Below are positions 36,306-46,329 of a stretch of 64,000 nucleotides of DNA, one piece after another. Below the pieces are notes generated by a model. The model was not told where the DNA came from. It did no database searches and was given only the letters and a program-made list of their open reading frames with translations. Position 1 is the first letter of the stretch. Every line of letters starts with the position of its first letter. This DNA comes from an uncultured Planctomycetota bacterium (lineage in GTDB: Bacteria; Planctomycetota; SKW154; DAOVDS01): contig CAZXNM010000005.1 in assembly GCA_964641955.1 (NCBI GenBank), positions 164,066 to 228,065 on the forward strand, read 5' to 3'. Both the position numbers and the translations under genes were made by a program.

Positions 36306-39300
36306 ATGTCTTCAAGCGATAAACTCTTCTTCGTTCTTCTTCTCACACTTGTAATTTCTGTCTGCCACGGCTGCGGCAATATCGATGGGCCGCAGTTTCC
36401 CTGGGTTGCGTCACCGCTTGTGACAGTATCTACGCCATCCAGTCCTGCAAGCGGCGATATACCGATTATCTACAAGCTTATCGACCGGGAGCTTGAACAG
36501 GGCACAATTACCCTCGAATACTCCACGGACGGCGGACAGACATACAACACAGCGACCCTCACCGTCCCCGGCGAAGCGACCAACCTCGCTTCCGGATGGC
36601 ATCCCGGAAAAACTCATGCCGTCCAGTGGGACTCGGTAACGGACATGGTGGGCCGCTCCGGCGCCGTGGAGGTGAAGGTGCGAATCACGCCTTCCGACGC
36701 ATCGAACCCTTCAGGTACAGCCGGTGTATCGGATACGTTTACGGTAGATAACACTGCATACAACGAAGCTCCGACCGCAACGACGGCAGCACCGGCCGGC
36801 GTGCAGTCGGGAAACGTGCAGATAAACTACTTTCTCTCCGACGTTGAAAGCGACACATGCTCCATAGAAGTGCTCTATTCCGTAAATAACGGGACAACCT
36901 GGCAGTCAGCGACAATGGGTACTGCGGGCGACGGGCTGACAGGACTCTCTTCCTCACCTGCCGGAACTGCGCATGTCTATTTCTGGGACTCTCGTGCAGA
37001 CAACGTGGCTCTCTCCGGGCAGGTTGACACGGTGAAAATCAGGGTAATTCCAACCGATTTCAATACAGGCACTGCCGGAGACACCAACTCCTTCAGCGTG
37101 GACAACTCGGTTGCGAATAACCCGCCTACTGTGACAATCGAGACAGGTCCCGCCGATAGCTCGACAGTTACGACTACGCAGGTGACGTTCACCTGGAGCG
37201 GTTCTGATACCGATGGAAGCGTTATCGGTTATTATTACTCGTTCGACCACGACCCGCCGGATATGTGGACGACGAACACGACAGCCACCTCGTTGCCTCT
37301 GACAGAAGGCCTCCACATCTTCCGGGTAGTCGCCATGGATAACGACAGCGATTTGTCAACAGTCGCCTCGCGGACGTTTACGGTTTCAATACCGGGTACG
37401 ATAACAGCGGATTTCATCGGCACGCCGCTTACGGGCGAAGCGCCGCTCACGGTGGATTTTACCGACCTCTCGACAGCGACGAACGGGATTGACACGTGGT
37501 CGTGGGACTTCGGGAACGGCGACACGAGCACCGAGCAGCACCCGTCCTGCATTTACGACGATGCCGGAAGCTACACGGTGTCGCTCACCGTCACCGGCCC
37601 CGACGGGGAGGACACGGAGACAAAGACAACTTACATAACGGTGGTAGGCGAGCACACTGAGGGAACGATTTACGTGGATGACTCCGGAGGTCTTGACAGC
37701 AACAACGGCCTGAGCTGGGTCACGGCTGTGAAGACGATACAGACCGGCCTCGACAAGGCTTCCGACAACTGGACAGTCTTTGTCGCAAACGGGACATACA
37801 CCGGCACAACCAACAAGAACCTGGATTTTGCAGGTAAGGCGATACATCTTAAATCTGTCGGCGGCGCGTCCAACTGTGTCATAGACTGCGAGAACGACGG
37901 TCGGGGTTTCTACTTCCACAGTGGTGAAACAAACGCCGCTATCGTCGAAGGTCTGACTGTCAAGAATGGGGGACTTGTTGATGGTTACGGAGCCGGTATT
38001 CTGTGCAAAGACTCGAGTTCGCCAATAATACGTGACTGCGCAATAGAAAATTGTCACGCAGTTTCCATGTCCTGGGTAATTGAGGGAGGCGGCATTTCCT
38101 GCATGTATGATTCGAGCCCATCCCTAATCAGGTGTACCATTGCGGGCAACTCCGCTGGTCATTGGGGTGGCGGTCTTTGTTGTTTAGACAATTGCAGTCC
38201 AGCCGTAACTGATTGCACCATAGCCGGTAACTCAGCGCAGTGGGGCGGCGGTATTAGCTGTGATAACCAGTCTAATCCGGTGATAAGTGACTGCACGGTA
38301 GAAGACAATTCGGCAGATGACTGGGGTGGTGGGATTCTGTGCCGACGAACCAGCGAGCTTTCAATAGCCAACTGCACGATAAGAAACAACTGGGCCGGCA
38401 ATTATGGAGGTGGAATTTTTGCTGACTACTTCAATGCTACAATCCTTTGCTGCATCATAACTGGAAACAGGGCTGATTCCATGGGCGGAGGCATATACTG
38501 CGACGCATCGGATTTCGCATTGGTAAATTGTGTAATAGCGGGTAATTCCTCGGTGGATGGAGGTTGCATTCACTTCGAAAACAGCGACAACCCAACGATC
38601 ACCAATTGCACGTTAGCAGGCAACACGGCGGACTGGTATGGTGGCGGTATCAGCGCCTATAACTCTTATCCGATCCTGGGCAACTGCATCCTGTGGGCTA
38701 ATACGGCCACTAATGATGGTAATGAAATCTTCACGCTTGCAAGTGGCATGACCATCACATTGAACTATTGTGACTACGCTGACAACACTTTGAATTCACA
38801 CAATATTTCTGGTTTCGGTGATGTTCTTGAACAGGGCATTTGCATTCACTTAGACCCGCAGTTTTTGAACGCAGCCGCGCAGGATTATCACCTTCAAGCG
38901 GGTTCACCATGCATCGATGCCGGCGACAACTCCCTGGTACCGTCGGGCGTTACGACCGACTTCGACGGCTGCGCGCGGATATTCAACGACATTGTTGACA
39001 TAGGCCCGCTTGAGTACGGCTCGTCCCATCCCTATGACCTGATTGAGCTTATCAACATAGACCGCGCCGTGGCTGGCGCGCCGCCGCTTGCGTGGAACGA
39101 AGCCTGGTCCACCGCATGTACAGGCCATTCGGAGCAGGTTTACATCGGCGAGCGCAATGGTACAATCGTACAGGTGGACCCCGCCCTCGTTACCTGGTAC
39201 AACAGCGACGACTCGCAGAAGCGCCAGCTCATGGACTTCGATGGCAGCCCCGCGACCGGGTATTTCATCAGTGCCACGGCGATGGCCTTCGGCACGCATG

Positions 39301-39434
39301 TTGACTCCCTCGCCGATTTCCATGACGCGCTGATGGCAAACTTCAGCGAATACCTTCTCGACCCGGCGGTAACGGACTTTGGCTGCGGAAGCTGCGGAGA
39401 TGTCTGGGAAGCAATGTGGACCTACAACCCGTAA
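36306..39434 (+). CDS. secreted multidomain protein: Asp-box/Ig-like repeats + PKD domain + right-handed parallel beta-helix (PbH1) repeats + C-terminal domain
   Basis: Start at ATG 36306 with GGGAGGAA RBS (the ORF-track TTG extension is rejected). Signal peptide. SxDxGxTW-like motifs. PKD motif ...WDFGNGDTSTEQHP..Y...G.YTVSLTV. Many C.I.GNSA..GGGI beta-helix repeats. Confidence 0.7.
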   Translation: MSSSDKLFFVLLLTLVISVCHGCGNIDGPQFPWVASPLVTVSTPSSPASGDIPIIYKLIDRELEQGTITLEYSTDGGQTYNTATLTVPGEATNLASGWHPGKTHAVQWDSVTDMVGRSGAVEVKVRITPSDASNPSGTAGVSDTFTVDNTAYNEAPTATTAAPAGVQSGNVQINYFLSDVESDTCSIEVLYSVNNGTTWQSATMGTAGDGLTGLSSSPAGTAHVYFWDSRADNVALSGQVDTVKIRVIPTDFNTGTAGDTNSFSVDNSVANNPPTVTIETGPADSSTVTTTQVTFTWSGSDTDGSVIGYYYSFDHDPPDMWTTNTTATSLPLTEGLHIFRVVAMDNDSDLSTVASRTFTVSIPGTITADFIGTPLTGEAPLTVDFTDLSTATNGIDTWSWDFGNGDTSTEQHPSCIYDDAGSYTVSLTVTGPDGEDTETKTTYITVVGEHTEGTIYVDDSGGLDSNNGLSWVTAVKTIQTGLDKASDNWTVFVANGTYTGTTNKNLDFAGKAIHLKSVGGASNCVIDCENDGRGFYFHSGETNAAIVEGLTVKNGGLVDGYGAGILCKDSSSPIIRDCAIENCHAVSMSWVIEGGGISCMYDSSPSLIRCTIAGNSAGHWGGGLCCLDNCSPAVTDCTIAGNSAQWGGGISCDNQSNPVISDCTVEDNSADDWGGGILCRRTSELSIANCTIRNNWAGNYGGGIFADYFNATILCCIITGNRADSMGGGIYCDASDFALVNCVIAGNSSVDGGCIHFENSDNPTITNCTLAGNTADWYGGGISAYNSYPILGNCILWANTATNDGNEIFTLASGMTITLNYCDYADNTLNSHNISGFGDVLEQGICIHLDPQFLNAAAQDYHLQAGSPCIDAGDNSLVPSGVTTDFDGCARIFNDIVDIGPLEYGSSHPYDLIELINIDRAVAGAPPLAWNEAWSTACTGHSEQVYIGERNGTIVQVDPALVTWYNSDDSQKRQLMDFDGSPATGYFISATAMAFGTHVDSLADFHDALMANFSEYLLDPAVTDFGCGSCGDVWEAMWTYNP

Positions 39435-39687
39435 GCATCCCCCGCAATGCCCCGCGGGATGCGCTGTGTTCTCCTTTTCCTGCGGCGGGATGGCGGCAGG
39501 GCAATGTTGGCTCAAAATCCGGGCTTGAGACTTGCATTCTTCCCGGTGCAGGGTATACTACCTCAGTGTTCTGCCGGCGTATGTATTGACGAAAGACGGC
39601 AAGGGATGCGGGCGCCCGGGCGTCTTATTTGACAGAGGGTTGGTCGGGGACGCCGGGATGTCCAGCGGTTGTTTGACATGCGGGAAC

Positions 39688-39763
39688 GGGCGGTTAACTC
39701 AGCGGCTAGAGTGCCATCCTCACACGGTGGAAGTCAGTGGTTCGAATCCACTACCGCCCACCA
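39688..39763 (+). tRNA. tRNA-Val (anticodon CAC), CCA encoded
   Basis: Cloverleaf by hand: acceptor GGGCGGT/ACCGCCC, D stem ACTC/GAGT, anticodon stem CCATC/GGTGG with loop CTCACAC, T arm AGTGG-TTCGAAT-CCACT, discriminator A plus CCA. 76 nt. Confidence 0.85.
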
Positions 39764-39833
39764 TTTTGCTTCGGGCAAAATGGTAGAGCAGGGGGGGCTG
39801 TTGTTTTGTCTCCTGCTCTACTGTTCTGAATAT

Positions 39834-39906
39834 GGGGCCGTAGCTCAGTTGGGAGAGCGCCGCGTTCGCACTGCGGAGGTAGTGGGTTCGAACCCCATCG
39901 GCTCCA
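39834..39906 (+). tRNA. tRNA-Ala (anticodon CGC), G3:U70 identity pair present
   Basis: Acceptor GGGGCCG/CGGCTCC with a G3-U70 wobble, D arm GCTC-AGTTGGGA-GAGC, anticodon loop TTCGCAC, T arm GTGGG-TTCGAAC-CCCAT. 73 nt, no encoded CCA. Confidence 0.85.
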
Positions 39907-39932
39907 TTTTTTCTCGCCACGGCGAGAAAAAA
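39907..39932. terminator. bidirectional intrinsic terminator
   Basis: TTTTTT-CTCGCC-ac-GGCGAG-AAAAAA, a perfect hairpin flanked by T and A runs directly after tRNA-Ala. Confidence 0.8.
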
Positions 39933-40091
39933 TAGAAAGGAGAAAGGAGTAAGTAGAAAGTAGTAAGTAGAAAGTAGAGCAAACCGCGGCTAACGCCGCG
40001 TCCGAGGAAAGAACCTCCACATACCTGAATAGCTTTTCTCCTTGGTCTACTTACTACTCACTACTTTCTGATAAACAAAGCGGAACATGCT

Positions 40092-40454
40092 ATGGCCTTT
40101 GCCTTCGAGAAGCTTCTCGTCTATCAGAAGGCCGTCGATTTTGCCGACACCATATCAAAGCTCACCGAGCAATTTCCGAGAGGATATTCTTATCTCGCTA
40201 ACCAGTTAAACAGAGCCTCCTTGTCTATCGCCGCCAACATTGCCGAAGGCAACGGCCGCTTCACGAAGGCAGACCGGAGGAACTTCTTCTTCATCGCGCG
40301 AGGGTCTGTTCAGGAGTGCATCCCGCTGCTGGAGCTTGCTAAAAGACGCCACCTTGTTAGCGGTAGCGTGCAGCAGCAACTCAAGTCTCGACTCGAAGAA
40401 ATAGCCAAAATGCTGTCCGGATTGATAAAAGGCATCGACAAGCGTAAGATATGA
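40092..40454 (+). CDS. four-helix-bundle protein (23S rRNA intervening-sequence protein / bAvd-like family)
   Basis: LVYQKAVDFADTISKLTEQFP..Y.LANQLNRASLSIAANIAEGNGRFTKADRRNFFFIARGSVQE matches the conserved core of the IVS-protein/Avd family. 120 aa. Confidence 0.75.
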   Translation: MAFAFEKLLVYQKAVDFADTISKLTEQFPRGYSYLANQLNRASLSIAANIAEGNGRFTKADRRNFFFIARGSVQECIPLLELAKRRHLVSGSVQQQLKSRLEEIAKMLSGLIKGIDKRKI

Positions 40455-41104
40455 AGCAGACGGCCCGCTTGCCTATGGAAGATGATTCGCAGAATGAGCT
40501 TAAGCCCAAATGGAAGGAACTCCTGTATCCTGTGGTAATAGGATTGGGTGTTGGTGCCGGCGGGTTCTGTGTCATGCTGGCTGGATACGGTGTTCTGTTC
40601 TATTACCTGTGGGTCTTCATATTGCCGTTTATCGCAGTCATCAGCCTCCTGTCCCGCCCTCGTTCTTTTCGAGCCTTTCTCATCAGATTTAGCCTTATCG
40701 CGGTCCTGGGGGCCGTCCTGACGGGCCTGGGGCTCGGGTTGCTGATTATAAAGAAGTGGTCAGTCTGCAGTGACCTCAACTCGATAATCTCCGAATTGGA
40801 GGACTATCGCACGGCAAACGGAGCATATCCGCCCGGCCTGTCTGCCGTGCACAAGCCCAACCGCCTGAAAATCGGCGAAGGACGGACAACAAGGGAGGGG
40901 ATTAACCTCGAAGGATGCAGCGACTATGATGCCGTTTTCTATCTCTCGCCGGACGAATTCCTGTGCATCGTGCCGATTACGAAGATGCTCCCTATGGTCT
41001 TCACGCGGGTCTACATTTACCGGTGGTCAACCAGTGAGCCGCGTTGGAGGTCGGAGAAGCTTGTCTGGTCTCTGGGCGTAAGCGAAGAAACTCCAGACAA
41101 GTGA
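40451..41104 (+). CDS. hypothetical membrane protein (3-4 TM) translationally coupled to the four-helix-bundle gene
   Basis: ATGA overlap with the upstream stop. Hydrophobic segments VVIGLGVGAGGFCVMLAGYGVLFYYLWVFILPFIAVISLL and LIAVLGAVLTGLGLGLLII. Confidence 0.5.
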   Translation: MKQTARLPMEDDSQNELKPKWKELLYPVVIGLGVGAGGFCVMLAGYGVLFYYLWVFILPFIAVISLLSRPRSFRAFLIRFSLIAVLGAVLTGLGLGLLIIKKWSVCSDLNSIISELEDYRTANGAYPPGLSAVHKPNRLKIGEGRTTREGINLEGCSDYDAVFYLSPDEFLCIVPITKMLPMVFTRVYIYRWSTSEPRWRSEKLVWSLGVSEETPDK

Positions 41105-41117
41105 TAAGCCCTGCCTG

Positions 41118-43112
41118 CTAAAACCTGTGCGCCAGTATCTTCTCCACAACCGCTTCGGGCGTGAAGCCGAGCTCGGATGCAATCTGCTTGTAGGGCGCCG
41201 AGAGACCGAACCGGTCGATGCCTATAACCAGCCCGCGCTCCCCGACGTAGCGCTCCCATCCCTGCGTCGCGCCCGCCTCGATTGCCACACGTTTCGGGCA
41301 CTCCGGCGGGATGACGCTGTTCCTGTAGTCCTCGCTCTGCTGCTCGAACATCTCCCACGACGGCATGCTCACGACCCGGACCTTGCGGCCTTTCTCTTTG
41401 AGCTTCGCCTTCGCGGTTAGCGCCAGCGCGACCTCCGACCCGCTCGCGACAAGCACGGTGTCCGGTTTCCCGTCGCAGTCGGCCAGCACGTAGGCCCCCT
41501 TGAGCAGTCCTTCAGCGGAAGCGAGAGAAGCGTGGTCTATCGCGGGCAGCTTCTGCCTCGTGAGGATGAGCGCGGTCGGCCCGTCCTTGCGATGCAGCGC
41601 GTACGACCACGCATAAGCCGTCTCGGGTCCGTCCGCCGGACGGATTACCGTCAGGTTCGGCATGGCGCGAAGGCTCGCGACGTGCTCGACTGGCTGGTGC
41701 GTCGGGCCATCCTCGCCGAGGAAGACCGAGTCGTGGGTGAAGACGTAGACCGCCTGGACGCCGCTCAGCGCGGCCATGCGGATTGCCGGCCTCATGTAGT
41801 CGGAGAACACGAGGAAAGTTCCGCCGTAGGGGATAATTCCCCCGAAATGGGCCATGCCGTTCATGAGCGAGCCCATGCCGTGCTCGCGAACGCCGAAGTG
41901 GAAGTTGCGCCCCTCCGGCGAATCCTTCTGGAAGACCGGGTAGTCGTTCAGGAAAGTATTGTTCGAGGGCGTCAGGTCCGCCGAGCCGCCCATGAGCCCC
42001 GGCACGAGACGCGCTGCCGCCTGCAAGACCTTGCCGGACGCCTTGCGCGTTGCTACCTCGTCCGCCGGCGCGGCGGCGAGAAGCTGCTCTTCGAGGTCAT
42101 CCGGGAGCTCCCCGTTCCAGATTTTGCGCCACATTGCCGCATCTTCCGCCGGCATCTCCTGAAGCTGCCGCGACCACTCTTCGCGGACGGCGCCAAGCTC
42201 TTCGGCGCGCTTCGCGAACATCTCCCTGACATCTTCGGGCACGAGGAACGCCGGCTCCACCAGCCAATCGAGGTTCTCCTTAGTCGCCTTCACCTCGTCC
42301 TCGCCCAGCGGCGAGCCGTGCGAGGAGGACTTGTCCTGCTTGTTCGGGCTGCCGAACGCGATATGCGTCCTGCCCATGATTATCGAGGGGCGCCCGGTTT
42401 CGGCAATTGCCGCCTCGAACGCCTTCTCCAGTGCTGTACGGTCGTGCCCGTCCACCGTCTGCACGTGCCAGCCGTAAGCCTCGAACCGCCTGACCCTGTC
42501 CTCCGTAAACGTCAAATCTGTCGGGCCATCTATGGAGATTTTGTTGTCATCATAGAAATAGATGATGTTGCCCAGCCCCAAATGCCCCGCCAGCGACGCC
42601 GCCTCGGAGGCGACGCCCTCCATGAGGTCGCCGTCCGAGCATATTGCGAAGATTCGCGGGTTCACAAGCTCGCGCCCGGCCTTGTTGAAGACCGAGCCGA
42701 GGTGCTTCGCCGCTATGGCCATGCCCACGCCGTTCGCGAACCCCTGGCCCAGCGGCCCCGTCGTCACCTCCACGCCCGGCATGCAGCCGTACTCGGGGTG
42801 CCCGGCCGCCTTGCAGTGAAGCTGCCGGAAGTCCTTCAGCTCATCGAGAGAAATGCCATATCCACATAAATGCAGCATGGCGTACAGCAGCGCCGAACCG
42901 TGCCCCGCCGATAACACGAACCTGTCCCTGTTGGGCCAGTCCGGCTCCTTCGGGTCGAAGCGCATGAACTTCATCCACATGACGTAAGCCGCATCGGCGC
43001 ACCCCATCGGCATGCCGGGATGCCCCGAATTCGCCTTCTGCACCATGTCAACGGAAAGGAAGCGGATTGTGTTTACTGCCTTCTGCTCGAGTTCCGGGTC
43101 AACTTCCAACAA
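41118..43112 (-). CDS. tkt: transketolase
   Basis: 664 aa with a TPP-binding N-terminus (...[17 protein letters not shown]..., GDG...EG motif), plus pyrimidine-binding and C-terminal domains. Confidence 0.9.
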
Positions 43113-45650: not shown

Positions 45651-45803
45651 GATTCGCTCCCTCCCGAATTAACGACCGGCTGTATTGTTTATATCGTTTC
45701 CGATATAAAATCAACCGAAAAGATGAAATTCACGCCGATACAGAATACGACTGCTGCACAGGCGTGAGAATTGTGAGTAGACAGTAGAATGTGGAGCACA
45801 CAG

Positions 45804-45855
45804 CCGGAACGTGTATATGCGAATATGTTAACATATTCGCATATACACGTTCCGG
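45804..45855. repeat. 52-bp perfect palindrome centred on GTTAAC, nested inside longer imperfect inverted repeats (45775-45952)
   Basis: CCGGAACGTGTATATGCGAATATGTTAACATATTCGCATATACACGTTCCGG is identical to its reverse complement. It is flanked by GTGGAGC/GCTCCAC, and further out by GTAGACAGTAG (45777-45787) / TACTGTCTAC (45933-45942). Confidence 0.9.
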
Positions 45856-46329
45856 CTCCACTTCGTCATTACGAGCAGGGCGAAGCCCGGCCATGCCCAT
45901 TGGCTATTGGCTTCTTGGCCTCTGGCCCTGTGTACTGTCTACCGTCTACTGTATAGGAGTTTTGGGTACACGATCCGGAGTTCAGTGGAGTTCCGGTCAT
46001 GTCCCCAAAACTCGGGAGGCGTCGGGACATGATCAACTTGTCGCCTGTCGTATGTTTCGCCAAACTGCCTGGCGTTTGGCTTCGCCAAGCCGCCAGTGGG
46101 CGAGAACATACTTTCGGCGATCTGGCGCTTAGGTTTTTATCGCCTTACGTAATTCTGCTGCGCAGAATGACTCCCGGCGATGTGGCGCTGAACTTGTACT
46201 GCGCAACGGAACTGCGCCAGAGTCGTGTCCCAGAGACGCCGGCTGCGCCAGGGAAATCAGACCGCCACGCGGCGATGCCCGCCGCTTGCGGCGCCGGTAA
46301 TCAAGCCTCGTCAAGTAGTTGAGAATAAA

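What the first reader, a model, noticed from the sequence alone, without database searches (positions are those of the whole stretch)
39934..41104. bAvd/IVS-type four-helix-bundle gene coupled to a membrane-protein gene, downstream of tRNA-Val/tRNA-Ala and preceded by tandem 14-mers forming a long imperfect hairpin
The 120-aa ORF has the conserved core of the 23S-rRNA intervening-sequence protein / DGR Avd family. It overlaps (ATGA) a 217-aa 3-4 TM protein, a pairing I do not recognise. Upstream, right after the tRNA-Ala terminator, there are two tandem copies of AGTAAGTAGAAAGT (39948-39975). A partly complementary arm CTACTTACTACTCACTACTTTCT lies at 40047-40069. A GC-rich mini-hairpin (CCGCGGCTAACGCCGCG) sits in the loop between them. 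No reverse transcriptase is nearby, so this is not a canonical DGR. The structured RNA and tRNA adjacency are reminiscent of the IVS/processing elements where this protein family was first found, or of an integration remnant.
Basis: partly seen in the sequence, partly recalled or inferred. Interest (0 to 1): 0.55.

Follow-up and report, generated by a model that had tools for sequence, protein, structure and literature searches.

The report
IVS-like gene cassette behind a tRNA
The hairpin and small four-helix-bundle gene after tRNA-Ala are one copy of a cassette found after tRNA and tmRNA genes throughout the Planctomycetota, and it looks like a tRNA-linked cousin of the "intervening sequences" that interrupt 23S rRNA genes in other bacteria.

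Summary
The "tandem 14-mers" are in fact a 7-nt-period array of 7.1 copies. The hairpin after tRNA-Ala is not a terminator. The ATGA overlap with the membrane-protein gene is probably not the true start.

The 120-aa ORF is a clear PF05635/TIGR02436 protein. The same layout recurs in 80 Planctomycetota loci whose proteins are 68-78% identical. It runs tRNA/tmRNA 3' end, short perfect hairpin, TAGAG, covarying stem with an invariant GG bulge, purine heptads inside and pyrimidine heptads after it, then the ORF. In 60 of the 80 loci a tRNA or tmRNA lies directly upstream.

Heptad-repeat arms also bracket 13 of 15 unrelated family members, including a true 23S rRNA IVS. They are published for the Coxiella IVS, where RNase III cuts the stem.

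So this is an IVS-type cassette in a tRNA trailer, with both arms upstream of the ORF. The most likely mechanism is inferred, not shown: co-transcription with the tRNAs, then dsRNA processing of the heptad hairpin. A DNA-level mobility role remains open.

The membrane-protein partner is lineage-specific and absent from all 80 related loci. I rate this a new variant of a known kind.

The parts
39688..39763 (+). tRNA-Val(CAC), the first gene of the tRNA pair
   Evidence: ARAGORN; Rfam tRNA, 63 bits
39761..39821 (+). Val-Ala spacer. It holds a short hairpin (CCATTTTGC..GCAAAATGG) followed by a miniature TAGAGCAGG...CCTGCTCTAC hairpin. It has the same base motif as the main module but no heptad arrays, no GG bulge and no ORF.
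   Evidence: Direct reading. The fold has an MFE of -28.8 kcal/mol and z=-4.5. The spacer is homologous but diverged in L001/L002.
39833..39907 (+). tRNA-Ala(CGC). CCA is not encoded. The cassette starts at the base after the discriminator.
   Evidence: ARAGORN; Rfam, 61.7 bits
39907..39932 (+). Hairpin H1 (TTTTTTCTCGCC-ACGG-CGAGAAAAAA). It fills the whole interval between the tRNA and TAGA. It has no U-tail, so it is not an intrinsic terminator.
   Evidence: The same perfectly palindromic filler, 12-34 nt long with a variable sequence, is present in 48 of 48 directly adjoining loci; 45 of 48 lack a T-run after the stem. Compensatory differences against L001 are seen.
39929..39982 (+). Purine-rich heptad array of the 5' arm. 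It includes the conserved base TAGA (39933-39936), the 5' strand of stem X (39937-39947), and the Y heptads AGTAAGT/AGAAAGT (39948-39982).
   Evidence: TRF gives period 7 with 7.1 copies. Lag-7 autocorrelation across 65 modules is 0.53. Stem X is in register i+j=4.
39983..40032 (+). Variable loop containing the GC mini-hairpin CCGCGGCTAACGCCGCG (39985-40001)
   Evidence: The loop is variable in length and sequence between loci but conserved against L001.
40033..40069 (+). Pyrimidine-rich 3' arm. It holds the 3' strand of stem X (40033-40043), the GG bulge (40044-40045) that is invariant in the family, the base TCTA (40046-40049), and the Y' heptads CTACTTA/CTACTCA/CTACTTT up to 40069.
   Evidence: columns 49-50 GG are invariant; the TAGA/TCTA base is conserved. 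TRF gives period 7 at 40047-40065. The window's own Y:Y' duplex ranks 4th of 65 possible partners.
40092..40454 (+). Gene for a 120-aa four-helix-bundle protein of the 23S-rRNA-IVS-protein / S23p family
   Evidence: PF05635 E=2.7e-29 and TIGR02436 E=6e-29. PDB 2GSC E=1e-10. dN/dS is 0.13 against L001. 311 relatives were found in genome contigs; the best 80 are 68-78% identical.
40451..41104 (+). Membrane-protein gene with predicted N-terminal transmembrane helices followed by a helix and beta-sheet domain. The likely true start is 40475. It is a lineage-specific downstream neighbour, not part of the conserved cassette.
   Evidence: No Pfam or NCBIfam family matches. Only 4 close homologues exist, all next to tkt. 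The wider family is small, with 93 cluster representatives. dN/dS is 0.27. It is absent from all 80 cassette loci. The structural model is low-confidence, pLDDT 59.5.

Best explanation
The region is one copy of a conserved cassette found throughout the Planctomycetota. The cassette occupies the 3' trailer of tRNA genes (mostly tRNA-Pro, also Ala, Met and Glu) and of tmRNA genes.

Its order is as follows:
1. The discriminator base of the tRNA.
2. A short perfect hairpin (H1).
3. TAGAG.
4. A Watson-Crick stem whose sequence covaries, with an invariant GG bulge near its base (TAGAG...C-GG-TCTA).
5. A purine-rich heptad array inside that stem's loop, and a complementary pyrimidine-rich heptad array just 3' of it.
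6. The gene for an S23p/IVS-family four-helix-bundle protein.

It is the tRNA-trailer counterpart of the 23S rRNA intervening sequence (IVS). Both are a four-helix-bundle gene with heptad-repeat hairpin arms embedded in a stable-RNA transcription unit. Here the arrangement is permuted, because both arms lie upstream of the ORF instead of bracketing it.

Proposed mechanism (inferred, not shown):
- The cassette has no promoter of its own and is transcribed by read-through from tRNA-Val and tRNA-Ala.
- The tRNAs are released by the normal 5'/3' processing enzymes.
- The long heptad duplex is a double-strand-RNase (RNase III-type) substrate. Cleavage separates the tRNA precursor from the mRNA for the four-helix-bundle and membrane proteins and sets that mRNA's 5' end.
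- The stem X:X' and the heptad pairing Y:Y' cross each other topologically, so they cannot both form at full length. Y' runs up to the start codon in some loci. The choice of pairing, and the number of heptads (which changes by slippage), probably tunes translation.

The membrane-protein gene is simply the gene that happened to lie downstream in this lineage.
For: Shown here:
- In 60 of 80 loci chosen only by protein similarity, a tRNA or tmRNA lies directly upstream on the same strand: 48 Pro, 4 tmRNA, 4 Ala, 2 Met, 2 Glu. Most of the remaining loci have tRNA 3' fragments upstream or truncated contigs.
- H1 exactly fills the gap between the tRNA and TAGAG in 48 of 48 loci, and is terminator-like in only 3.
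- Stem X forms in a fixed register from two independent anchors in 60 of 75 modules.
- On 64 sequences, 84% of cells are paired against 68% in shuffles. There are 192 double-sided changes against 67 in shuffles. Sliding the pairing gives 37-58%.
- Both arms show 7-nt periodicity, with lag-7 identity of 0.53/0.54. Of 151 period-7 arrays, 91 fall in the 4.2% of sequence just upstream of these genes.
- Unusual heptad types covary between the two arms.
- The window shows no sigma-70-like promoter and no + strand terminator between tRNA-Ala and the ATG.
- The leader differs by about 10% from L001, against dS of 0.40 in the gene. The gene itself has dN/dS of 0.13.

Family-wide link:
- 13 of 15 unrelated family genes (Cyanobacteriota, Alphaproteobacteria, Bacteroidota) are bracketed by inverted short-repeat arrays, purine-rich upstream. 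Their scores are 14-27 against a shuffled maximum of 8-11.
- One of these lies inside a 23S rRNA gene.

Literature:
- The Coxiella IVS has a bulged 28-bp stem and 2-3 tandem heptamers before the S23p ATG, with copy-number variation between strains. RNase III cuts in the stem at the first heptamer (PMC4990558).
- In H. influenzae, a heptamer-repeat 5'-UTR hairpin is processed by RNase III and sets expression (PMC12721329).
Against: - There is no transcript data, so co-transcription and cleavage are inferences.
- The promoter scan covers only sigma-70 consensus sites, and planctomycete promoters are poorly known.
- The + and - strands fold equally well: -52.4 against -50.9 kcal/mol (p=0.12), with 206 against 205 G-U pairs.
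- Stem X is almost free of G-U pairs. This fits a DNA-level inverted repeat at least as well as an RNA helix.
- Stem X alone is often only 7-12 bp, which is short for RNase III.
- Three H1 hairpins are terminator-like.
- About 13 of 60 loci carry direct repeats of the tRNA 3' end. Tandem and decayed copies also exist. Both point to DNA-level recombination.
- Unlike a true IVS, the arms do not enclose the ORF.
Confidence: 0.5

Rival explanations
1. The hairpin acts mainly at the DNA level. On this view the inverted heptad arrays and the bulged stem are the ends or recombination site of a small non-autonomous mobile cassette, a foldback-like or attC-like structure read as a cruciform or single-stranded DNA hairpin. 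The cassette inserts at tRNA/tmRNA 3' ends and elsewhere inside operons, and is moved in trans by an enzyme encoded elsewhere. The four-helix-bundle protein would be its cargo or accessory factor.
For: - Complementarity is strictly Watson-Crick with almost no G-U pairs, and there is no strand bias in folding.
- There is an invariant extrahelical GG next to a conserved stem base, as in attC sites.
- Direct repeats of the tRNA 3' end (9-24 nt, or longer) flank units as small as about 650 bp in L010, L026, L027 and L060. Arrays of such units occur in L047, L043, L015 and L020.
- Tandem copies exist, with decayed pseudogene copies.
- Two paralogous leaders in one genome are 97% identical while their genes are 81.5% identical and their flanks are unrelated.
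- Relatives in cyanobacteria sit wedged between co-oriented genes, such as cas10|cmr3 and cas6|cas4.
- Protein identity of 68-78% across three classes is high for a small accessory gene.
Against: - No recombinase recurs among 131 neighbouring ORFs. There is no recurrent integrase family, and only 2 Y1 transposases. None lies within about 9 kb in the window.
- The window has no direct repeat of the tRNA-Ala 3' end.
- The block order X-Y...X'-Y' is not that of terminal inverted repeats.
- The purine arm is always on the coding strand upstream. That is a strand-specific constraint expected for RNA.
- Neither the protein nor the motif is found in 2.9 million viral contigs.
- No integron-type R'/R'' core sequences are present.
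Confidence: 0.25
2. The heptad arrays are binding sites for the encoded protein itself. On this view the homopentameric four-helix-bundle ring binds the repeated purine or pyrimidine heptads, as RNA or single-stranded DNA, and autoregulates its own translation. Alternatively it packages or protects the adjacent RNA, much as DGR Avd binds the RNA encoded next to it.
For: - Structural homologues crystallise with five chains: 2GSC and 2RLD. The pentameric toroid is described in PMC4990558.
- Arrays typically have 3-5 heptads per arm.
- Heptad type and protein subclade go together. All seven GGTGAAC-type leaders carry an FMFE N-terminus.
- Heptad arms accompany the gene in distant phyla.
- In some loci the pyrimidine heptads abut the start codon, 23-26 nt from CGGTC to ATG.
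Against: - Copy number is variable: 2.7 to about 40 copies, with 7.1 in the window. It is not fixed at five.
- The link between heptad type and protein clade is equally explained by inheritance of the two together.
- No binding data exist for any non-DGR family member.
- The Coxiella study argues that its S23p is not even translated.
Confidence: 0.15
3. The feature is an ordinary local one. It could be a tRNA operon terminator or attenuator, or the scar of a prophage or island that once integrated at tRNA-Ala, next to an unrelated two-gene operon.
For: - It lies next to tRNA genes, which are classic integration sites.
- GC content is lower across 39900-40650 (0.46-0.53) than in the tkt/tal region (0.60-0.69).
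Against: - The same architecture, with invariant motifs, occurs in 80 loci across the phylum.
- No U-tract terminator is present.
- There is no integrase, no direct repeat in the window, and no viral match.
- Both the leader and the gene are under purifying selection.
Confidence: 0.03

Closest known systems
23S rRNA intervening sequences carrying an S23p ORF (Coxiella burnetii, Leptospira and others; PMC4990558)
   Same: - The protein family is the same (PF05635).
- The element is embedded in a stable-RNA transcription unit.
- The stem is long, imperfect and bulged.
- Tandem heptamers with copy-number variation lie in the arm before the ORF.
- A canonical example read here (L092, inside an LSU rRNA gene) has 36-nt period-7 arms.
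   Different: - The host is a tRNA/tmRNA 3' trailer, not a 23S helix.
- Both arms lie upstream of the ORF instead of enclosing it.
- There is an extra short hairpin H1 and a conserved TAGAG...CGGTCTA base with a GG bulge.
- The gene is under clear purifying selection here, whereas the Coxiella ORF is reported to be decaying.
- RNase III cleavage has not been tested here.
Haemophilus influenzae hmw1A 5'-UTR heptamer-repeat hairpin (PMC12721329)
   Same: - A heptameric simple-sequence repeat forms one arm of a long 5'-leader hairpin.
- The repeat number varies.
- In that system RNase III processing of the hairpin sets expression.
   Different: - The gene and sequence are unrelated, and there is no tRNA linkage.
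- There the right arm is a G-rich stretch, whereas here it is a complementary heptad array.
- The role of RNase III is demonstrated there and only inferred here.
DGR accessory protein bAvd
   Same: - The fold is a related four-helix bundle. There are weak matches to PF22296 (E=1.9e-4) and NF033474 (E=7.8e-5).
- It is a pentameric nucleic-acid-binding accessory protein whose gene lies next to the structured RNA it works with.
   Different: - Both HMM scores are far below their cutoffs: 22.4 against 40, and 22.9 against 80.
- There is no reverse transcriptase within about 9 kb, or among 131 neighbouring ORFs of the related loci.
Integron attC sites and gene cassettes
   Same: - An imperfect hairpin of about 60-115 nt.
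- A conserved stem base, extrahelical bases and a variable loop.
- It sits next to a promoter-less ORF, and tandem units occur.
   Different: - There are no R''/R' (GTTRRRY) core sites and no IntI.
- The hairpin precedes the ORF.
- All cassettes carry the same gene family, and the location is tRNA trailers.
Four-helix-bundle ('S23 ribosomal protein') genes wedged into cyanobacterial operons, including cas loci (PMC3936711)
   Same: - The protein family is the same.
- The gene is promoter-less and sits between co-oriented genes.
- As read here, they are bracketed by inverted heptad arrays.
   Different: - Their arms bracket the ORF.
- Their hosts are protein-coding operons rather than tRNA trailers.
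- Their proteins are only 29-44% identical to the window protein.

Membership tests
PF05635 / TIGR02436 four-helix-bundle (23S rRNA IVS protein, S23p) family | HMM score above the curated cutoff over the full domain | tested here: met
   PF05635 scores 101.9 bits against 33.8, covering residues 6-110 of the 106-position model. TIGR02436 scores 100.4 bits against 24.
PF05635 / TIGR02436 four-helix-bundle (23S rRNA IVS protein, S23p) family | Conserved motif GxxRxxxSxxxNxxE (PMC3936711) | tested here: met
   Direct reading of the translation gives ..NQLNRASLSIAANIAEG... RxxxSxxxNxxE is present. The leading G is replaced by Q.
PF05635 / TIGR02436 four-helix-bundle (23S rRNA IVS protein, S23p) family | Homopentameric toroid of four-helix bundles | not tested
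   This rests only on homology to 2GSC (E=1e-10, 5 chains in the entry). No model of the 120-aa protein was built.
23S rRNA intervening sequence (IVS) element | Inserted in a 23S rRNA helix (9, 25 or 45) | tested here: not met
   Rfam finds no rRNA in 39000-41500. The element follows tRNA-Ala.
23S rRNA intervening sequence (IVS) element | Terminal inverted repeats that pair to enclose the ORF | tested here: not met
   Both arms lie upstream of the ATG. Across 65 modules, the purine arm has no complement downstream of the ORF beyond shuffled controls, except where a tandem copy follows.
23S rRNA intervening sequence (IVS) element | S23p-family ORF preceded by tandem heptameric repeats within the stem arm | tested here: met
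   TRF gives period 7 with 7.1 copies at 39929-39978. This compares with the Coxiella heptamers and with L092.
23S rRNA intervening sequence (IVS) element | Excision from the host RNA by RNase III | not testable with these tools
   This needs end-mapping or an in vitro cleavage assay.
Planctomycetota tRNA-trailer cassette (defined here) | Order tRNA/tmRNA end - H1 - TAGAG - stem X - purine heptads - loop - X' - C-GG-TCTA - pyrimidine heptads - ORF | tested here: met
   The window aligns without gaps to 63 other modules. It has an 11-bp stem X. Next to the bulge it carries an A-T pair where the family has G-C, a compensatory change shared with L001. Its H1 is 25 nt.
Diversity-generating retroelement (Avd accessory gene) | Adjacent reverse transcriptase, and an Avd equivalog score | tested here: not met
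   NF033474 scores 22.9 bits against a cutoff of 80. None of the 10 flanking proteins has an RT domain. TR/VR repeats were not specifically searched for.
tRNA-targeting integrative island or prophage | Integrase gene, and a direct repeat of the tRNA 3' end at the far boundary | tested here: not met
   In the window the best repeat is a 13/14 match inside tkt, judged to be chance, and there is no integrase. In related loci, direct repeats occur in about 13 of 60, but no integrase family recurs.
Integron gene cassette (attC) | R''/R' core sites (RYYYAAC / GTTRRRY) and a nearby IntI | tested here: not met
   By direct reading the stem base is TAGAG / CGGTCTA. No integrase is present.
Intrinsic (rho-independent) terminator | GC-rich stem followed by a U-tract on the transcribed strand | tested here: not met
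   The scan finds no + strand terminator between 39907 and 40092. H1 has its T-run 5' and its A-run 3'.
Any described RNA family (Rfam 15) | Covariance-model match | tested here: not met
   Only tRNA matches at E<=1 in 39000-41500. Only tRNA and tmRNA match in 15 related loci.

The most novel reading that the evidence does not exclude
S23p/IVS-family genes with their inverted heptad arrays may be a single, widespread class of self-propagating cassette that colonises transcription units such as 23S rRNA, tRNA/tmRNA trailers and cas and par operons. On this reading the pentameric four-helix-bundle protein recognises its own heptad arrays, as RNA or single-stranded DNA. It would either direct copy-and-paste of the cassette, for example through an RNA intermediate with a host polymerase, or shield the host transcript from damage. 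The Planctomycetota tRNA-trailer form would be the most conserved and most tractable example. It would explain how and why rRNA intervening sequences exist.
Probability: 0.15. Interest if true: 0.85.

Novelty: new variant of a known kind. Interest (0 to 1): 0.62.

Why it matters
Intervening sequences in 23S rRNA and their S23p ORFs have been known since the early 1990s. Their function and their mode of spread are still unexplained.

Three results here bear on that question:
- The same gene family, with the same heptad-repeat hairpin hallmark, has colonised tRNA and tmRNA trailers across a whole phylum.
- In that setting the gene is under strong purifying selection.
- The cassette carries a sharply defined bulged-stem motif.

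Together these give a conserved, alignable system with many copies. It allows concrete tests of RNase III processing, of protein-heptad binding, and of filled against empty sites.

It also suggests that family members seen inside cas operons are insertions of the same cassette rather than CRISPR accessory genes.

For annotation, it gives a simple rule. A four-helix-bundle gene next to period-7 arrays should be read as one unit, and its downstream neighbour should not be assumed to be a partner.

Tried and rejected
- **Rfam.** Permissive and gathering thresholds on the window region and 15 loci gave nothing but tRNA and tmRNA.
- **Strand asymmetry.** I compared folding energies and G-U counts on the two strands to separate an RNA role from a DNA role. 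There was no difference, so the test is uninformative.
- **Third complementary element.** I searched between the heptads and the ATG for a further complement to the 5' arm. The signal was weak (mean z of -1) and comes from the last heptad, so I dropped it.
- **Direct repeat of the tRNA-Ala 3' end in the window.** The only candidate is a 13/14 match inside tkt, judged to be chance.
- **Integrase or recombinase near the cassettes.** No family recurs among 131 ORFs, and only 2 are Y1 transposases.
- **Conserved downstream partner.** There is none. Neighbours are heterogeneous and no membrane-protein homologue is found.
- **Phage origin.** Neither the protein nor the motif occurs in viral contigs.
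- **A possible 'empty site'.** Contig P0004 has the membrane-protein gene with only 268 nt upstream and no four-helix-bundle gene called.
- **Structure of the membrane protein.** The model reached only pLDDT 59.5, so I ran no fold search.
- **'Five heptads for a pentamer'.** Copy numbers are too variable to support this.
- **Resemblance to the 16S rRNA 3' end.** The 3' arm (CCTGCGGT..CTCCTTTCT) resembles helix 45 plus the anti-Shine-Dalgarno sequence. This is recalled from memory only. No 16S sequence was available to test it, so I did not use it.
- **H-type pseudoknot combining X:X' and Y:Y'.** I rejected this on geometry. The connecting segments are 0-5 nt, far too short to span stems of 10-20 bp. 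This is inference.
Full report
**1. What is in the window**

tRNA-Val(CAC) lies at 39688-39763 and tRNA-Ala(CGC) at 39833-39907, both on the + strand (Rfam).

From the base after the tRNA-Ala discriminator, a perfect hairpin (H1, 39907-39932) runs up to the sequence TAGA at 39933. H1 has its T-run on the 5' side and its A-run on the 3' side. It has no U-tail, and the terminator scan finds no + strand terminator before the ORF.

A purine-rich array follows. Tandem Repeats Finder calls it period 7 with 7.1 copies at 39929-39978.

A 50-nt loop holds the GC mini-hairpin. A pyrimidine-rich arm lies at 40033-40069, and TRF calls a period-7 array within it at 40047-40065.

The whole leader folds at -66.9 kcal/mol, with z=-6.5.

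The 120-aa ORF at 40092-40454 is a clear member of PF05635/TIGR02436 (E about 1e-29). Its nearest solved structure is X. campestris XCC0516 (2GSC, E=1e-10).

The next ORF, 40451-41104, matches no family.

The ten flanking genes encode efflux components, PKD/beta-helix proteins, transketolase, transaldolase, a phosphate-binding-type protein and a methyltransferase. None is a reverse transcriptase or a recombinase.

**2. The membrane-protein 'partner' is local**

Only four close homologues exist, and all lie next to transketolase. An exhaustive profile search finds a small family of 93 cluster representatives with no Pfam domain.

Two of the three homologues begin at the residue aligned with M9. 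The real start is therefore probably 40475, and the ATGA overlap is not conserved.

Both genes are under purifying selection against the relative L001. dN/dS is 0.13 for the four-helix-bundle gene and 0.27 for the membrane protein.

None of the 80 related cassette loci encodes this protein, by single-sequence or profile search. The genes that follow the cassette elsewhere are heterogeneous.

One contig has the membrane-protein gene with only 268 nt upstream and no four-helix-bundle gene called. Its DNA could not be obtained.

**3. The cassette is phylum-wide and tied to tRNA and tmRNA genes**

A scan of one genome per species found 311 relatives. The best 80 are 68-78% identical, and almost all come from Planctomycetota of three classes. 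These loci were chosen by protein similarity alone.

In 60 of them ARAGORN finds a tRNA or tmRNA directly upstream on the same strand. The breakdown is 48 tRNA-Pro of all three anticodons, 4 tmRNA, 4 Ala, 2 Met and 2 Glu. Most of the rest have a tRNA 3' half or fragment upstream, or a contig that ends too early.

Where the tRNA directly adjoins the module (48 loci), the interval to TAGAG is always a perfect palindromic hairpin. It is 12-34 nt long and variable in sequence. It begins TT in 39 cases and is terminator-like in only 3.

**4. Anatomy shared by the modules**

Two conserved anchors, TAGAG and CGGTC, define a stem (X:X') in a fixed register. In 60 of 75 modules at least 7 consecutive pairs form there.

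I built an ungapped alignment of the arms of 64 modules, with the loops replaced by a linker. On it:
- 84% of cells pair, against 68% after shuffling.
- There are 192 double-sided changes, against 67 after shuffling.
- Sliding the partner by 1-3 columns gives 37-58%.

The pairs TAGA/TCTA at the base and a two-base GG bulge are invariant or nearly so. G-U pairs are almost absent.

One caveat applies. The 5' anchor was chosen to maximise this pairing when several candidates existed.

Both arms have a 7-nt period, with lag-7 identity of 0.53 and 0.54 against 0.2-0.4 at other lags. In the related loci, 91 of 151 period-7/14/21 arrays fall in the 4.2% of sequence within 260 nt upstream of these genes.

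The purine heptads (Y) lie inside the loop of stem X. The complementary pyrimidine heptads (Y') lie just 3' of it. Rare heptad types (GGTGAAC, GAGTCGA, and the window's GTAAGTA) change together on both arms.

The order is X-Y-loop-X'-Y', with connectors of 0-5 nt. I infer from this that the two full-length helices exclude each other. They are alternative structures, or, because all the heptads are alike, they form one long register-shifted hairpin like the MFE.

The distance from CGGTC to the ATG is 23-26 nt in some loci and 41-51 nt in most. The pyrimidine array therefore reaches, or nearly reaches, the start codon.

In the window, stem X is 11 bp (39937-39947 paired with 40033-40043). The pair next to the bulge is A-T where the family has G-C, a compensatory change shared with L001.

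The leader differs from L001 by about 10% plus one 14-nt (two-heptad) indel, while dS in the adjacent gene is 0.40. The leader is therefore constrained, and its heptad number varies.

**5. The link to intervening sequences**

The Coxiella burnetii IVS has the following published features (PMC4990558):
- It is a 428-nt element in helix 45 of 23S rRNA.
- It has a 28-bp stem with one mismatch and one bulge.
- An AG-rich stretch and two or three tandem heptamers (GACAGAT) lie before the S23p start.
- The heptamer number differs between strains.
- RNase III cuts in the stem, at the first heptamer.

I then read 15 unrelated family genes on plasmids of Cyanobacteriota, an Azospirillum, a Riemerella and a Gemmatirosa.

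Thirteen are bracketed by inverted arrays of short tandem repeats, mostly of period 7. The arm upstream on the coding strand is purine-rich. Scores are 14-27 against a shuffled maximum of 8-11.

The Azospirillum copy lies inside a 23S rRNA gene, so it is a canonical IVS. Others are wedged between co-oriented genes such as cas10 and cmr3, or cas6 and cas4. That placement has been reported before, but without the repeats (PMC3936711).

Heptad-armed hairpins are therefore a hallmark of this gene family, and the window's hairpin is an instance.

The planctomycete form differs in having both arms upstream of the ORF. The purine arm has no complement downstream of the ORF beyond chance.

**6. How it most likely works**

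The following are shown here: the architecture, its conservation, the covariation, the tRNA linkage, and the absence of consensus promoter and terminator sites in the window.

The following is known from the literature. RNase III excises IVSs at such stems. In H. influenzae, a heptamer-repeat 5'-UTR hairpin is processed by RNase III, and repeat number sets expression (PMC12721329).

The following is inferred. The cassette is transcribed from the tRNA promoter. The tRNAs are released by their usual processing. The heptad duplex is cut by a double-strand RNase, which frees an mRNA with a short pyrimidine leader. The choice of alternative pairing and the heptad number tune translation.

The Val-Ala spacer supports a processing role. 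It contains a miniature hairpin with the same TAGAG...TCTAC base (39784-39821), that is, the motif sits between two tRNAs.

**7. What argues for a DNA-level role**

- The two strands fold equally well, and G-U pairs are as frequent on one as on the other.
- Stem X is strictly Watson-Crick.
- About 13 of 60 loci carry a direct repeat of the tRNA 3' end downstream of the gene, sometimes only 46-75 nt after the stop. The flanked unit is then about 650 bp.
- L047, L043, L015 and L020 hold arrays of such units. Each is separated by a recurrent 25-nt tRNA-end-like sequence.
- Tandem copies start at or within the preceding stop codon, and the extra copies are often frameshifted.
- In one genome, two leaders behind different tRNA-Pro genes are 97% identical, while the genes are 81.5% identical and the flanks are unrelated.

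Against this, no recombinase family recurs among 131 neighbouring ORFs. The cassette is absent from 2.9 million viral contigs. The window itself has no flanking repeat.

Some of the tRNA halves that precede modules are simply what an unrelated island leaves behind after integrating into the tRNA.

The two views are not exclusive. The element may be processed as RNA and also spread as DNA.

**8. Comparison and verdict**

No Rfam family matches. Full-text searches found no description of tRNA-linked copies, or of the heptad brackets outside Coxiella.

It is not a DGR, because there is no RT and the Avd score is far below its cutoff. It is not an integron cassette, an island or a terminator.

It fails two defining features of a 23S IVS, namely the host and the arms enclosing the ORF. 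It shares the gene, the heptad arm, the bulged stem and the stable-RNA host.

I therefore file it as a new variant of a known kind, not as a member of the IVS family. Interest is moderate to high because it offers a conserved, multi-copy system for an old open question.

Noticed in passing
window 45776-45955: There is a second heptad-armed hairpin with no four-helix-bundle ORF and no tRNA. Its arms are GAGTAGACAGTAGAATGTGGA and TACTGTCTACCGTCTACTGTATA (TRF period 7, 3.6 copies). They enclose a perfect 28+28-nt palindrome at 45802-45857. The fold has an MFE of -97.9 kcal/mol and z=-7.8. It lies in the intergenic region before a PKD/beta-helix protein gene. It may be an ORF-less relative of the cassette hairpin.
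   Followed up: partly
window 39761-39821: The spacer between tRNA-Val and tRNA-Ala holds a short hairpin plus a miniature TAGAGCAGG...CCTGCTCTAC hairpin. It has the same base motif as the cassette but lacks heptads and the GG bulge. The spacer is homologous but diverged in the relatives L001 and L002.
   Followed up: partly
L087-L101 (plasmids of Nostoc, Picosynechococcus, Anabaena, Geminocystis, Azospirillum, Riemerella and others): 13 of 15 four-helix-bundle genes are bracketed by inverted period-7 (sometimes 6-8) repeat arrays. They sit between co-oriented genes with short spacers, including cas10|cmr3, cas6|cas4 and par genes. L092 lies inside a 23S rRNA gene. Reported CRISPR 'associations' of this family may therefore be insertions of a cassette.
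   Followed up: yes
L016 and L020 (same Brocadiaceae MAG): The leaders behind tRNA-Pro(TGG) and tRNA-Pro(GGG) are 97% identical over 177 nt, including the otherwise variable loop. The coding sequences are 81.5% identical and the flanks are unrelated. This suggests gene conversion or very recent copying of the leader. A second pair from one genome (L035/L052) shows no such homogenisation.
   Followed up: partly
L047 3800-6900; L043, L015, L020, L026, L027, L052, L057, L060, L063: Recurrent 25-nt pseudo-ends resemble a tRNA T-loop plus acceptor 3' strand with about 5 extra bases (for example GTTCAACTGGTGTCCAGTCGCCCCGA). They delimit small units after tRNA-Pro, and their non-tRNA part is similar between distant genomes. 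L047 has three in a row, separating the cassette, a PIN-domain ORF and a second module that precedes a membrane-protein ORF.
   Followed up: partly
window 40033-40069 and family consensus CTCTCCTGCGGTCTCCTTTCT: The 3' arm resembles the 3' end of 16S rRNA (the helix 45 3' strand CCUGCGGU plus the anti-Shine-Dalgarno CUCCUUUCU). The 5' arm (AGAAAGGAG, twice) is a long Shine-Dalgarno-like complement. This is recalled from memory, and no 16S sequence was available to test it.
   Followed up: no
window 40451-41104: The membrane protein's C-terminal part has a helix-plus-beta-sheet layout and a motif (ISELEDYRTANGAYPPGLSAV) that recalls type II secretion pseudopilins, which are abundant in planctomycetes. 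The model is low-confidence (pLDDT 59.5) and no Pfam domain matches.
   Followed up: partly
L022 4486-4970; L038 about 1210-1720: In L022, a second cassette-type hairpin is followed by a nucleotidyltransferase-like ORF (FGSVARGQERPDSDLDV motif) rather than a four-helix-bundle gene. In L038, a hairpin of a different heptad type (CACCTG) follows the first gene. The hairpin can therefore precede other genes.
   Followed up: no
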